Positions 15,602-50,581 are shown, numbered from the stretch's first letter. The stretch is 64,000 nucleotides of DNA from Kofleriaceae bacterium (GCA_965215005.1 CBDCCZ010000001.1:128001-192000); one strand, 5' to 3'. A program made the numbers and translations. Notes: generated from the letters alone by a model not told the origin.

Positions 15602-15675
15602 GGGGCGGTAGTTAAGTCGGTTATAACGCCGGCCTGTCACGCCGGAGGCCGCGGGTTCGAGTCCCGTCCGCCCCG
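15602..15675 (+). tRNA. tRNA-Asp(GTC), probable integration site
   Basis: Cloverleaf; CCGGC-CTGTCAC-GCCGG anticodon arm; GGTTCGAGTCC; no encoded CCA. Confidence 0.96.
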
Positions 15676-16950
15676 CAAATCAGGAAGCCCGGAAGTCCAC
15701 GAGACTTCCGGGCTTTTTGTCGTCCGGAGGCACGAGGAGTGGGGACTGTAGTAAGACTGTAGTAACGATCCGACGCTTTCAGCGGCACGCTCGCAGCTCG
15801 CGAGGGCATCCGGCGGCATGGCGATCTGCAGTTTGTTAACCTCCTCACATTTCGCTGACCAGCTGAGCGTTGTGTAGAGGTCGACAACAGCCTTTGGTGG
15901 TCCGTGGGTAACCCAGCGGAGTAAGTCGCCACGAGCGCCGTCCTCAATGGCTAGGGAGATGAACGTCCGCCGCAGGTCATGCTGCCGGCGACGACGCAGG
16001 CCAAGCTTGTCGCAGTCCGCGTGAAACTTCTTCAGCATGTGGTCGCTGTTTCTATAACGACCGTTGCGCGAGGGGATGATCAGATCATCGTCGGACGGCG
16101 CGTGGCCAATCATTTTGGTCCAACCCAGACGCCGCCACTCTTCGAGAATGGACGCCAGGGCTGGATGTACCGGCATCTGGCGCGCCACCCCCGTCTTCGT
16201 CCCCTTCACACGCTTTTTCTTCGTGTCGTACGACTTCGTGATGGATAATTTTCCCAAAGGCTCGAGCTCGCCGTTGTAGTCGCTCCATCGAAGTGCAGCG
16301 CTCTCGCCGAAGCGCGTGCTACCCACGAACAACAACCCGTTGAGGACTCGCCGATCCTGCGGCACCCGCGCATCGAAGAGCAGAGCTTGCACTTCCTCCC
16401 GCGAAAAGATGGCAGTTTCTCTCCACCCGGGATCGGCGTCCAACTTCTCTGGCAAGCGATCCTTGGGCACGATGCACGGATTTCTCTCGAGAAGCTCCTC
16501 CGCTACCGCATCTTCCAGCAGCTTGTGGACGATGCCGTAGATATTCCAAATAGTCTTAGGCGCCAGGTTTCTGTCTCGCGCGGAGTGCTTGCTCTGGAGC
16601 TCCTCGATAAGGGCGACAAAGTCGCGCGGACGGAGTTCTGTGAGTAGACGACTTCCTAAGGATGGAAAGACATGGAGTCGAAGCCGAGACTCATCGTCAG
16701 CGACGCTGGCGTTGCCCTTGCGTCTTCGAGCTGCCAGGCGAAGCTTCGCGTAAGCGTGAAACGTCAGCTCATTCGCTTCTTTGATATGAGTTACCTGGCC
16801 AGCTGCTACGAGCCGCTCGACCTCAGCCAGGAGAGCGTCGGCTTCTTCCTCACAGCCTCTCTTTAGTTTCGTCGACCGGTACACCATTTTGCCGACTGCG
16901 TTCTTGTACCCGATCCAGATCGTGTTGCCTCGATAGTAACGCGTTCCCAC
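15637..16950 (-). CDS. Tyrosine integrase; reading frame ends inside tRNA-Asp
   Basis: TRFGESAALRW, KGTKT, HDLRR, VTHG and VDLYTT catalytic motifs; N-terminal core-binding region (RLRLHVFPSLG). Confidence 0.92.
   Translation of the reverse strand: MGTRYYRGNTIWIGYKNAVGKMVYRSTKLKRGCEEEADALLAEVERLVAAGQVTHIKEANELTFHAYAKLRLAARRRKGNASVADDESRLRLHVFPSLGSRLLTELRPRDFVALIEELQSKHSARDRNLAPKTIWNIYGIVHKLLEDAVAEELLERNPCIVPKDRLPEKLDADPGWRETAIFSREEVQALLFDARVPQDRRVLNGLLFVGSTRFGESAALRWSDYNGELEPLGKLSITKSYDTKKKRVKGTKTGVARQMPVHPALASILEEWRRLGWTKMIGHAPSDDDLIIPSRNGRYRNSDHMLKKFHADCDKLGLRRRRQHDLRRTFISLAIEDGARGDLLRWVTHGPPKAVVDLYTTLSWSAKCEEVNKLQIAMPPDALASCERAAESVGSLLQSYYSPHSSCLRTTKSPEVSWTSGLPDLRGGRDSNPRPPA
15685..15718 (+). 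terminator. Intrinsic terminator after tRNA-Asp
   Basis: 13-bp stem AAGCCCGGAAGTC/GACTTCCGGGCTT, 5-nt loop, followed by TTT. Confidence 0.8.
15744..15765. repeat. 11-bp tandem direct repeat, candidate integrase arm-binding sites
   Basis: GACTGTAGTAA twice, about 70 bp from the tRNA 3' end. Confidence 0.6.
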
Positions 16951-17157
16951 TTGCCGCCCTTTATCCGTTCGATGACCGATTTAAGCTGAGCGGCCCCGTA
17001 TCCGCCTCAAGCTCGATAGCTGAGCTCGCTCAGACTTTCTGCTGCCGCGGTGCCTGGGAGGAATGGTGCACCGAGCTTCGTGCGGCGGCAACCATTCCTC
17101 GCAGACGCGCTAGGGGAGCTGTTTGTGTCGCGATCGTCCGATGCCTTTTCTGCGCCA

Positions 17158-17496
17158 TCAACCCTTCGCCGATAGCAGATCCAGCGCTCGCCGCGTCACG
17201 TCGGAGCGCGATCCTTGCTGCGGCGAAGCGTCCTCCTGCGACAATGATTGCAACGCGTCGTGTCGCACGCGCACGAGCCCTTGGAAACGGTGAGCCCTAA
17301 GTCTGCCCGTCTTAATCCAGCGACCTATGGTCTTGCTACTCACTCGGAGATAATCCGCTGCCTCTGCGATTGTGAACATTCGGTCTGCATCACATGAGGT
17401 GGCAGCGTTGTCCTGAAGCAGATGCACGTCTTGACGAAGGACTTCGCGCAGTTCTTCGCGGACGAGCGCTCGGAGAGCTTGTTCAAGTATGGACAT
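17158..17496 (-). CDS. Excisionase-like helix-turn-helix protein
   Basis: FTIAEAADYLRVSSKTIGRWIKTGRLRA; next to the integrase. Confidence 0.85.
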   Translation of the reverse strand: MSILEQALRALVREELREVLRQDVHLLQDNAATSCDADRMFTIAEAADYLRVSSKTIGRWIKTGRLRAHRFQGLVRVRHDALQSLSQEDASPQQGSRSDVTRRALDLLSAKG

Positions 17497-17610
17497 GCGA
17501 TGATTTCCTTGACGGAATATAGCGTTCCGCTGAATTGATCGCGGTAATCGGGGAGAGTGGCAGGCGCCGCAGAAGCTTCGCGGCTGCGACGCCTGCCGTT
17601 TCCTGCCGAT

Positions 17611-48909: not shown

Positions 48910-48911
48910 TC

Positions 48912-50279
48912 ATGCAAGTCATCGAGCTCGACTCGGAAGTAAGCCCGCCGGCGTTTGGTCTATCTGGCGATGAGCGCCTGGTATTCGAAGGTGGTCCAGT
49001 CCCCGTTCTCGAAGACGCCATGCTCGGTGACGCCAGCGATGCCGCCGCCGAAGAAGGCGACGCAGCGCAATCTACAAACATCGATCGACGCCGACGCCTC
49101 GAGCAGATCGTCAACCGTCGACGCCGCGCCATCGCCTCCGCCCGTGCCGAGCGCAAGGTGCTAGAAGCCCGCATCGCTGGCCTCGACCGACAGATCGTCT
49201 CCGAGCTGCGTCCCGCGCTCGAGCGCGCCAAGCGCCAAGGCAACCGCGACAAGATGCGCCGTCTCGACGACCGCATCCACCGCCTCGACCTCAACCGCGG
49301 CATCGTCGCCGCACGCGCCATTCGCTACGCCAAGACCGAGGGCCTCGGGCAAGTCCTCATCCGCAATGCCAGAACCCAACAGCAACTCCTAACGCTCATC
49401 CAACAAGCGCAGCGCACAGGCAAGACCAGTGCCGCGTCTACACTGCAGCGCGCCTTCAATCAGATCGCCGGCAAGACGCAACGCTACAAACGCCTCCGTC
49501 GCCACCAAGTGCACGATTGGAGAGAGAAGACCGCCGGATCACGCATCGCACTTGCGCGTATGCTGCGCGAGCAAGCTCAAGAGCGCCTCGCCCGCCTGGA
49601 AGATGCTGCCGGCCGCGGCAGCATCGGTCAACGCATCACTCGTCAAGCCGCCGAGCATCGCGTGCTCGTTACCAAGCTCAAAGCTGCCGAAGAGCGCGAA
49701 CGAAGTCGCCTACAGCACCTCGCTGTTCGAGATGCCCAAGGCATGGCATCCATGCCGTTCTCCGAAGCCACCGCCTTGGCCGCTACCATGGAGCTCGAAG
49801 GCTTCGAAGGCATCTGGTCAAGCATCAAGCGCTACGCCAAGAAGACCGGCGGCGCCATCACCGCCCCCGGCCGCGCCGTCGGCGGCGCCGTCAAAGACGC
49901 CGTCCGCCAAGTCGGCTCCGCCGCCAAACGCCTCGCCAAAGGCGCCGCCTGCGCCGCTGCATCCAACCCCGCCGTCCTCGCCGCCGCCGGAAGCGCCGCC
50001 GGCACCGTTCTCGGCGGCCCCGCCGGAACCATCGCCGGCGGCCTCGCCGCAAAAGCCGCCGGCGGCCTCCTCTCCGCCGCCTGTCCCCAACGATCAAACG
50101 CACCCGGTCCTCAACCGACATCCGGCACTGCCGCCATGCCCGTCTCTATGCAAACCGCGGCTTCAGGCATGCTCCAACCGCAGCCGCGCTCGATGACGCC
50201 CATCCTCATCGGCGGCGGCCTCGCCACCGCCGGCATCCTCGCCGCCGTCGCCCTCAGCGCAAACCGACAAGACTCCTAG
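48912..50279 (+). CDS. Modular protein: acidic N-terminus, Arg-rich coiled coil, Ala/Gly-rich amphipathic region, C-terminal TM
   Basis: ELEGFEGIWSSIKRYAKK; PILIGGGLATAGILAAVAL. Confidence 0.72.
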   Translation: MQVIELDSEVSPPAFGLSGDERLVFEGGPVPVLEDAMLGDASDAAAEEGDAAQSTNIDRRRRLEQIVNRRRRAIASARAERKVLEARIAGLDRQIVSELRPALERAKRQGNRDKMRRLDDRIHRLDLNRGIVAARAIRYAKTEGLGQVLIRNARTQQQLLTLIQQAQRTGKTSAASTLQRAFNQIAGKTQRYKRLRRHQVHDWREKTAGSRIALARMLREQAQERLARLEDAAGRGSIGQRITRQAAEHRVLVTKLKAAEERERSRLQHLAVRDAQGMASMPFSEATALAATMELEGFEGIWSSIKRYAKKTGGAITAPGRAVGGAVKDAVRQVGSAAKRLAKGAACAAASNPAVLAAAGSAAGTVLGGPAGTIAGGLAAKAAGGLLSAACPQRSNAPGPQPTSGTAAMPVSMQTAASGMLQPQPRSMTPILIGGGLATAGILAAVALSANRQDS

Positions 50280-50284
50280 CCCCA

Positions 50285-50581
50285 ATGACTCCAACCACCG
50301 ACCCCGACCTCATCCCCTACGTGCGCAAGCTCGAGCTCCTCCTGAGCCGCCCCGTCTGGAGCTGCCCCTCACTCCGCCGTCGGTTCCACGAACTCGACAC
50401 CGAGCTCCAAGGCTCCCTCACCAGAGCCCTCGCAACCCTCCTCCGCGACCAAGACATCGTCCGCTACGGCGCCCGCCTCATACCCATCAGCGGAGCCAAC
50501 GCCTCAACTCCGCCCGCAGCATCACCACAGGCCGGTGACTCATCAGCCGCTCCAAAAGCGAGCTGGCAGAGCTGGGGCTGA
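50285..50581 (+). CDS. Small hypothetical protein
   Basis: Starts 5 nt after the previous stop; last gene of the block. Confidence 0.5.
   Translation: MTPTTDPDLIPYVRKLELLLSRPVWSCPSLRRRFHELDTELQGSLTRALATLLRDQDIVRYGARLIPISGANASTPPAASPQAGDSSAAPKASWQSWG

What the first reader, a model, noticed from the sequence alone, without database searches (positions are those of the whole stretch)
15637..50581. Element that fits neither an ICE nor a tailed prophage
Seen: integrase and excisionase, SSB-like, sigma-like, primase-helicase, two helicases, exonuclease, RusA, BRO, ArdA, patatin and the putative virion block, but no relaxase, coupling protein, VirB4 or terminase in 48 kb. Inference: a replication and regulation backbone is joined to a tailless-virus structural module. 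Alternatively, a smaller provirus (about 34-50.6 kb) with its own Xer-like recombinase is nested in a larger island.
Basis: partly seen in the sequence, partly recalled or inferred. Interest (0 to 1): 0.72.

Follow-up and report, generated by a model that had tools for sequence, protein, structure and literature searches.

The report
Provirus of large tailless bacterial viruses
This 61.5-kb insertion in a tRNA gene is the integrated form of an apparently undescribed family of large (65-120 kb) tailless bacterial viruses with single-barrel capsid proteins and no recognisable DNA-packaging motor, which challenges the rule that only small viruses do without such a motor.

Summary
One element, not two. 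It runs from the tRNA-Asp 3' end (w15649) to a 78-bp copy 13 kb beyond the window (61.5 kb). Its Mx8-type integrase gains an HTH-bearing C-terminus from the far end in the predicted circle. No conjugation or head-tail genes were found. Two adjacent ORFs fold as single jelly-rolls, both ranking the SPV1 capsid protein first (Z 8.2, modest). The Xer-like recombinase / coiled-coil / transglutaminase-like / capsid operon recurs in five complete, terminally repeated genomes of 65-102 kb; 15 more IMG/VR contigs pair the transglutaminase-like gene with a distant capsid homolog. FtsK and terminase profiles hit 0 of 14 virus records; a HerA-like gene occurs in 2 of 14, among replication genes. A second copy in the same genome shows purifying selection (capsid pN/pS 0.01-0.04). 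The Xer is a core virus gene, so the nested-provirus idea is not supported. The closest isolate is the unclassified SSIP-1. Small basic Arg/Lys proteins are candidates for condensing the DNA in motor-free assembly (inferred). Three early genes are frameshifted and several virion genes of the free relatives are missing, so particle production is unproven.

The parts
15649..64000 (.). Integrated element, part inside the window; it continues to attR at w77165-77242 (C1:205165-205242), 61.5 kb in all
15602..15676 (+). tRNA-Asp(gtc), integration target, behind tRNA-Val and the host tig-lon region
15649..15726 (+). attL core, 78 bp identical to attR (tRNA 3' end plus terminator hairpin)
15637..16950 (-). 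Mx8-type tyrosine integrase, 437 aa as integrated; 575 aa in the predicted circle, with a C-terminal Sigma70_r4_2 HTH encoded left of attR
   Evidence: 47% to Mx8 Int, the only phage hit; (E 1.1e-11)
17158..17496 (-). Excisionase-like HTH
   Evidence: HTH_17, phrog_66
18087..18629 (-). SSB-like protein
   Evidence: phrog_14578 E 1e-4
20734..23026 (-). Unknown early genes; one is frameshifted near 21320
22655..24764 (+). SF2 helicase 1 (real start near 23230), frameshifted near 24400
24768..27702 (+). Putative primase/helicase-like gene, no family hit, frameshifted near 25500
   Evidence: one homolog set in 60 relatives
30866..34155 (+). Exonuclease, RusA, Sigma70_r4 regulator, BRO/antirepressor
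   Evidence: also in the C48 copy
35488..36405 (+). Patatin-like phospholipase
36620..38238 (-). SF2 helicase 2 and ArdA antirestriction protein
38242..40923 (-). Inverted virion sub-block: 275-aa membrane protein, two small ORFs, SLT transglycosylase with N-terminal hydrophobic helix, two 93-aa proteins (40367-40648, 40642-40923) conserved in G001-G004
42682..43563 (+). Xer-like tyrosine recombinase, first gene of the virion operon; R141 K167 H234 R237 H260 Y269 invariant in 6 of 6 aligned
   Evidence: pN/pS 0.02
43542..45167 (+). 541-aa Pro-rich/coiled-coil core protein, function unknown
   Evidence: conserved in G001-G005; no atlas hit for residues 70-170
45164..45805 (+). Transglutaminase-like Cys enzyme (C136-H169-D188 invariant in 5 of 5), homolog of SSIP-1 structural protein gp34; candidate maturation protease
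45939..46619 (-). RibD_C/DHFR-like gene, absent from the C48 copy (insertion)
46896..47051 (+). 51-aa Arg/Lys-rich, Cys-containing protein; candidate DNA-condensing core protein
   Evidence: pN/pS 0.05
47061..47633 (+). 190-aa protein with five G[LMF]G motifs, upstream of the capsid gene
47762..48442 (+). Major capsid protein candidate, 226 aa, single jelly-roll
   Evidence: pLDDT 86; SPV1 6oj0 rank 1; 418 family representatives; pN/pS 0.04
48439..48909 (+). Second single jelly-roll protein, 156 aa (second capsid protein or penton)
   Evidence: pLDDT 89; SPV1 6oj0 rank 1; pN/pS 0.01
48912..50581 (+). 455-aa coiled-coil protein with C-terminal hydrophobic helix, and a 98-aa ORF
51236..64000 (+). 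Cargo inside the att sites: 1481-aa unknown protein, Rhs protein with Tox-REase-7 plus HEAT-repeat immunity candidate, IS3; beyond the window a type I RM system, a CD-NTase/Cap15-like pair and a DS2-type antiphage gene

Best explanation
A temperate, tailless, probably membrane-containing dsDNA virus with single jelly-roll capsid proteins, integrated in a myxobacterium-like host (host inferred from the Mx8-type integrase and host gene content). SHOWN in sequence: one att-bounded 61.5-kb unit; attP lies inside int, so excision would swap the integrase C-terminus as in Mx8; two SJR proteins; a conserved Xer / coiled-coil / transglutaminase-like / capsid operon under purifying selection; the same operon in free 65-102 kb genomes without terminase, portal, HK97 capsid or FtsK-type ATPase. 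INFERRED: Int/Xis excise a circle; helicases, SSB, exonuclease and RusA replicate it; the Xer resolves multimers to unit circles; small Arg/Lys-rich proteins condense the DNA; the 226-aa and 156-aa SJR proteins assemble around this core and a membrane, as in portogloboviruses, without a packaging motor; the transglutaminase-like Cys enzyme matures virion proteins, possibly at G[LMF]G motifs; SLT and patatin act in entry or exit; ArdA shields incoming DNA. Likelihoods: provirus of this family about 0.85; motor-free assembly about 0.5; this copy still makes particles on its own about 0.35.
For: att pair and in-frame integrase extension with HTH. Int 47% to Mx8; attP-in-int is the Mx8 mechanism (PMC6070905, passages). 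SJR models with SPV1 capsid first in 4 of 4 PDB searches, HHIV-2, HCIV-1 and P23-77 proteins lower down. ESM Atlas: all 30 hits unnamed, the three shown 88-95% viral, score 0.97-0.98; nearest named clusters are PM2 P2 and PRD1 P3 capsid families at 0.76-0.77. Complete relatives with terminal repeats. FtsK 0 of 14, Terminase_6N 0 of 14, Pox_A32 0 of 4. Tyrosine recombinase in 14 of 14. Basic proteins in 13 of 31 loci examined, many too short to span the interval. pN/pS 0.01-0.05 for Xer, basic ORF, 190-aa protein and both SJRs. G[LMF]G 44 observed vs 20.3 expected in virion blocks, 73 vs 82.6 elsewhere (motif chosen by eye first).
Against: Fold scores are modest: Z 8.2 is tied with cellular SJRs (PHM 8.0, nucleoplasmin 7.5), and Foldseek E is 1e-3 to 4e-3. 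ESM recognition was below its threshold. HerA/DUF87-like ATPases occur in 2 of 14 virus records, and G004/G005 have an unassigned P-loop protein in the replication operon. The basic-protein filter found none in that interval of G001-G003. The Walker-A regex missed the D5 helicases of G001 and G003, so motif scans alone are incomplete. The element lacks recognisable homologs of the small third SJR (hhalign E 0.18) and of the large peptidoglycan-binding and spike-like proteins of the free viruses, and three early genes are frameshifted. No excised circle or particle was shown. The left arm was not seen linked to the capsid block elsewhere.
Confidence: 0.8

Rival explanations
1. Same virus family, but DNA is pumped into procapsids by a motor not recognised here (a divergent viral NTPase, the sporadic HerA-like protein, or a host FtsK/HerA).
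For: Genomes of 65-120 kb are far larger than known ATPase-less prokaryotic capsid viruses (7-11 kb Odin group, PMC5894146; about 20 kb SPV1, PMC8459092). SSIP-1 has a structural P-loop ATPase, gp40 (AAA_25). HerA-like genes in 2 of 14. The 541-aa core protein has no assigned fold.
Against: No P-loop family is shared by all complete genomes. gp40 has no tblastn hit in G001-G004 and no significant hit in the element. The HerA-like genes sit near primase-helicase genes, 14-23 kb from the transglutaminase-like gene.
Confidence: 0.35
2. A reduced, helper-dependent or domesticated derivative: an Mx8-type island that keeps the core capsid operon (satellite or gene-transfer particle) but needs a complete relative for spikes and replication.
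For: About 8-10 kb of virion genes that follow the capsid gene in G001-G005 are missing or moved in both copies. Frameshifts in three early genes. 26.6 kb of defence and toxin cargo. The C48 copy is broken by IS66, and G393 holds a rearranged copy.
Against: Purifying selection covers early genes and capsid genes alike (overall pN/pS 0.12 over 21 genes). The frameshifts may be recent or assembly errors; Logan contigs were too thin to decide.
Confidence: 0.25
3. A 17-kb provirus with its own Xer integrase nested in a larger island.
For: The left arm has no close counterpart in free relatives; the second copy's contig ends at w31188, so it cannot show its left arm.
Against: No internal att pair above background. 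The Xer is a core operon gene in free viruses, one of which has a separate integrase. C48 is colinear across 34 kb. The far end supplies the integrase C-terminus.
Confidence: 0.08
4. The jelly-roll proteins are not capsid proteins, and the element and its relatives are large plasmid-like replicons.
For: Cellular SJRs score within 1 Z unit of SPV1; no sequence hit of the 226-aa protein in 50,697 phage records.
Against: Relatives are IMG/VR records with terminal repeats, lysis-type enzymes and peptidoglycan-binding proteins. Synteny and a structural-protein homolog are shared with the isolated virus SSIP-1.
Confidence: 0.05

Closest known systems
[quoted passage not shown]
   Same: The only phage among 50,697 records with a homolog of the transglutaminase-like protein (gp34, structural; profile E 9e-20). 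Similar order: coiled-coil gp33, gp34..., gp44 (best hit of the 190-aa family, E 0.01), gp45/gp46 (gp46 best hit of the capsid profile, E 0.011-0.034), an SLT-like gp54 with hydrophobic C-terminus (by eye), G[LMF]G motifs (12 vs 4.0 expected).
   Different: Capsid homology is weak (hhalign probability 1%). SSIP-1 has a structural RecA/KaiC-like ATPase gp40 that is absent here. Its genome is smaller, and it has no Xer at the head of the operon.
Portogloboviridae (SPV1)
   Same: Top fold match for both SJR proteins; SPV1 has two SJR capsid proteins, a nucleoprotein core and no packaging ATPase (PMC8459092 whole text; PMC8812541 passages).
   Different: About 20 kb, Sulfolobales hosts, no polymerase. 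Here bacterial, 61-120 kb, PolA in G001-G003, integrase, protease-like enzyme; no sequence similarity in PDB search.
Singelaviria / Halopanivirales (HHIV-2, HCIV-1, SH1, SNJ1, P23-77)
   Same: Two adjacent SJR genes of about 226 and 156 aa; these capsid proteins appear among the fold hits (Z 5.5-7.8).
   Different: They encode an FtsK-HerA packaging ATPase (PMC8812541); FtsK was not found in 14 records here. Genomes here are several times larger.
Odin group and FLiP (ATPase-less double jelly-roll viruses)
   Same: No packaging ATPase.
   Different: Double jelly-roll capsid and 7-11 kb genomes (PMC5894146 passages).
Myxococcus phage Mx8 integration module
   Same: 47% identical integrase; attP inside int, so the C-terminus changes on integration.
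   Different: Mx8 is a tailed Caudoviricetes phage. The new C-terminus here is a Sigma70_r4-type HTH without significant similarity to that of Mx8 Int.
Borg capsid-like SJR clusters
   Same: Large elements with SJR clusters and unresolved packaging machinery (PMC12660748 passages).
   Different: Archaeal, far larger; no sequence comparison was made.

Membership tests
ICE / conjugative element | Relaxase, coupling protein, VirB4-type T4SS between the att sites | tested here: not met
   No such Pfam family in 62 ORFs covering attL to attR
Caudoviricetes prophage | HK97 capsid, large terminase, portal, tail | tested here: not met
   relatives: Terminase_6N 0 of 14; PHROG scans gave only repeat-domain, M23-peptidase and lysin-domain matches with head/tail labels and one 0-stretch terminase line inside a helicase
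Portogloboviridae | SJR capsid protein like SPV1 VP4 | tested here: met
   Rank 1, but only Z 8.2 (rmsd 3.5-4.0, 132-140 aligned), tied with cellular SJRs
Portogloboviridae | No packaging ATPase | tested here: met
   HerA-like in 2 of 14 relatives, outside the virion block
Portogloboviridae | About 20 kb genome, Sulfolobales host, no polymerase | tested here: not met
   61.5 kb in a bacterium; relatives 65-121 kb, PolA in G001-G003
Portogloboviridae | Nucleoprotein core and inner lipid layer | not testable with these tools
   Only candidates: basic ORFs, hydrophobic helices
Singelaviria / Halopanivirales | Two SJR major capsid proteins forming hetero-capsomers | tested here: inconclusive
Singelaviria / Halopanivirales | FtsK-HerA packaging ATPase | tested here: not met
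   FtsK 0 of 14, Pox_A32 0 of 4, DUF87 2 of 14
SSIP-1-like viruses | Transglutaminase-like virion protein behind a coiled-coil protein | tested here: met
SSIP-1-like viruses | Homologous major capsid proteins (gp45/gp46) | tested here: inconclusive
   E 0.011-0.034 among 31 proteins; hhalign probability 1%
SSIP-1-like viruses | gp40-type ATPase | tested here: not met
   AAA_25 over cut-off in 0 of 14
Double jelly-roll viruses (Varidnaviria, incl. Odin group) | [quoted passage not shown] | tested here: not met
   Single-barrel 226-aa model; the family's full-length hits are about 200-270 aa
Mx8-type integration module | attP inside int at a tRNA 3' end, C-terminus exchanged | tested here: met

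The most novel reading that the evidence does not exclude
First host-linked member of a widespread, undescribed order of tailless bacterial viruses with 65-120 kb genomes and portoglobovirus-like single jelly-roll capsids. They have no packaging motor and build the shell around DNA condensed by protamine-like Arg/Lys/Cys proteins, with a universally kept tyrosine recombinase making unit-length circles and a transglutaminase-fold protease maturing the particle. They would be several times larger than any motor-less prokaryotic capsid virus in the papers read, and would give SSIP-1 a family.
Probability: 0.45. Interest if true: 0.88.

Novelty: new variant of a known kind. Interest (0 to 1): 0.76.

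Why it matters
Papers read here tie ATPase-free assembly to small genomes (7-20 kb) and give prokaryotic double jelly-roll viruses under 20 kb. A family of 65-120 kb tailless viruses without terminase or FtsK motor would break that size rule, extend SPV1-like capsids to bacteria, and bear on the proposed portoglobovirus-like ancestor of Singelaviria. The capsid family (418 clusters at 50% identity) has no Pfam or PHROG model, so virome pipelines cannot place it. The integrated copies give a host lineage, an att site and a PCR test, and would add a tailless virus to myxobacteria-like hosts.

Tried and rejected
Capsid protein against PDB sequences: no hit below E 0.28; against 50,697 phage records: none; BFVD fold search gave only weak, mixed jelly-roll hits. 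The 5-kb extra stretch in the C48 copy was checked for a packaging ATPase: it is IS66 elements. hhalign between the SJR families, and of the third SJR family to ORF 39430-39711: not significant. The E-values of my iterated profiles for their own members are circular and not used as evidence; the 275-aa family link is not trusted. Sequencing runs: no RNA holder listed; three runs of Logan contigs at low depth showed no usable junction, coverage step or verdict on the frameshifts. The primase-like ORF found no relative in IMG/VR, and G038, which has a homolog, had no capsid match (71% complete). The capsid profile matched 0 of 40 relatives and 1 of 400 phylum genomes. The original SSIP-1 paper (PMC3344969) is not held; no supplements were read. 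Earlier scan findings: nothing. Literature searches that found no description of this family; subscription journals and ICTV proposals are not covered.
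Full report
Boundaries. The window is C1:128001-192000 of a 6.2-Mb genome. tRNA-Val and tRNA-Asp lie at 15495-15676, behind host trigger factor and Lon. The tRNA-Asp 3' end recurs at C1:205165; the exact core is 78 bp (w15649-15726 and w77165-77242). The element is therefore 61.5 kb and ends 13 kb past the window. Its integrase reads into attL and matches only Myxococcus phage Mx8 among 50,697 phage records (47%). In Mx8, attP lies inside int and integration changes the C-terminus (PMC6070905, passages). Here the predicted circle extends the 437-aa integrase to 575 aa, and the added part, encoded just inside attR, carries a Sigma70_r4_2 HTH (E 1.1e-11). 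Both ends thus belong to one unit.

Content. The primase-helicase call has no family support. Helicase 1, the primase-like gene and one unknown gene are frameshifted. From 51 kb to attR lies cargo: an Rhs/Tox-REase-7 gene with an immunity candidate, IS3, a type I RM system, a CD-NTase/Cap15-like pair and a DS2-type antiphage gene.

Capsid. ORF 47762-48442 has 118 hits among 422 candidates, itself included, and 418 representatives at E up to 0.001, none of the 118 with a Pfam domain. Its model (pLDDT 86) and that of the next ORF, 48439-48909 (pLDDT 89, 21 sequences), are single jelly-rolls. Both rank the SPV1 capsid protein first in Foldseek (E 3.9e-3 and 1.1e-3) and VIA-align (Z 8.2; rmsd 3.5 and 4.0; 132 and 140 aligned), with HHIV-2, HCIV-1 and P23-77 proteins lower. 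These scores are modest and tied with cellular barrels such as PHM and nucleoplasmin, so the fold alone does not prove a capsid. The ESM Atlas lists 30 unnamed clusters, the three shown 88-95% viral (0.97-0.98), and the PM2 and PRD1 capsid families as nearest named ones at lead level.

Free relatives. Four IMG/VR records (G001-G004; 102, 83, 89, 80 kb) have direct terminal repeats; a fifth contig, G005:C5 (65.5 kb), has a 55-bp terminal repeat. All five keep the order Xer, 541-aa-type protein, transglutaminase-like protein, capsid protein, second SJR, and the order recurs in those of 25 metagenome loci that are long enough. The recombinase keeps R-K-H-R-H-Y and the Cys enzyme its C-H-D triad. 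G001-G003 encode D5-type primase-helicase and PolA; G001 also has a separate 483-aa integrase. The transglutaminase-like profile found 19 further IMG/VR loci, 15 with a distant capsid homolog within 10 kb. Ten of these records were searched whole (49-121 kb, 5 with terminal repeats): each has one tyrosine recombinase match.

Packaging motor. PHROG scans covered 131 of 155 called genes of G001, 105 of 132 of G004, 140 of 252 of G002 plus G003, and 37 ORFs of G005. They gave no portal, HK97 capsid or true terminase; head/tail labels came from repeat, lysin and M23-peptidase domains, plus one zero-stretch terminase line inside a helicase. Whole-record searches: FtsK 0 of 14, Terminase_6N 0 of 14, Pox_A32 0 of 4, AAA_25 over cut-off 0 of 14 (7 weak hits), DUF87/HerA 2 of 14. 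The two HerA-like genes (558-575 aa) lie near primase-helicase genes, away from the virion block. G004 and G005 have an unassigned P-loop protein next to Sak4 and exonuclease. No ATPase is common to the family by these tests, but a cryptic or host motor is not excluded. Small Lys/Arg-rich proteins with Cys occur upstream of the capsid gene in 13 of 31 loci, though not in G001-G003 by my filter; the element's version is 46896-47051. SPV1 and FLiP lack ATPases (PMC8812541, passages), SPV1 wraps about 20 kb in a nucleoprotein core (PMC8459092, whole text), and the ATPase-less Odin group is 7-11 kb (PMC5894146, passages). I infer assembly around condensed DNA, at about even odds.

Closest isolate. 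The transglutaminase-like protein hits only SSIP-1 gp34, a structural protein (profile E 9e-20). SSIP-1 is an unclassified 44-kb, T=49 virus (PMC6260650, table passage) said to have two capsid protein types (PMC6356626, passages). Its gp44 and gp46 are the best, but weak, hits of the 190-aa and capsid profiles (E 0.01-0.03). Its ATPase gp40 has no counterpart here. A G[LMF]G motif is enriched in virion blocks (44 vs 20.3 expected; 73 vs 82.6 elsewhere; 12 vs 4.0 in SSIP-1). I picked the motif by eye, so it is a lead for a cleavage site, not a result.

Second copy and selection. Contig C48 carries a 94%-identical copy of w31188-49888, without the RibD insertion and with IS66 in the 455-aa gene. 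Over 21 genes pN/pS is 0.12; for Xer, basic ORF, 190-aa protein and both SJRs it is 0.01-0.05. The compact layout, with an inverted sub-block and without the large spike-like genes of the free viruses, is shared by both copies and was under selection. No internal att pair exceeds background. The capsid profile matched 0 of 40 relatives and 1 of 400 phylum genomes; that one, G393, is a rearranged integrated copy. Reads were uninformative.

Verdict. A provirus, possibly decaying, of a large tailless single jelly-roll virus family that resembles portogloboviruses and SSIP-1 but fails their membership tests on genome size, host or ATPase. I found no description of it in eight literature searches (listings and abstracts seen, plus passages of 10.1101/2025.02.15.638363 and PMC12660748), which omit most subscription journals. 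The myxobacterium-like host is my inference. New variant of a known kind; interest 0.76.

Noticed in passing
L001:16326-16619 and 17833-18441 (just right of attR, w77326-79441): An integrase C-terminal fragment (53% to the element's Int) and a homolog of ORF 29262-30296: remains of an older related element at the same tRNA-Asp site.
   Followed up: partly
G000:C14:15075-18073 (L010): A third remnant: frameshifted exonuclease (about 80% identity) and a piece of the 29262-30296 homolog beside IS66-like fragments.
   Followed up: partly
window 51236-61629; C37, C46, C48: A large unknown protein followed by an Rhs gene; several paralogous Rhs genes on C37 and C46, and a similar pair downstream of the C48 copy, so this cargo may travel with the element.
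   Followed up: no
window 23164-23223 and 30763-30822: A 60-nt direct repeat (75%) upstream of helicase 1 and of the exonuclease operon; candidate shared early promoter or operator.
   Followed up: no
window 23349-23815 and 37151-37617: The two SF2 helicases are paralogs (53% aa) in inverted orientation and could mediate an inversion.
   Followed up: no
L005:9995-11415 (G004), L051-L054: A subgroup has the major capsid gene duplicated in tandem, recalling the proposed duplication step toward two-capsid-protein viruses.
   Followed up: no
G005:C5 (L071-L074): A 65.5-kb contig with terminal repeats sits in a 1.2-Mb genome bin; probably a complete virus genome, binned in or extrachromosomal.
   Followed up: partly
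window 14827-14946: A 60-nt tandem duplication (87%) between lon and the tRNAs.
   Followed up: no
L001:12137-15576: A nucleotidyltransferase, a Cap15-like membrane protein and a DACNG/DACNH protein (NCBIfam DS2_2-like and DS2_3 antiphage) next to a type I RM system, while the element also encodes ArdA.
   Followed up: partly
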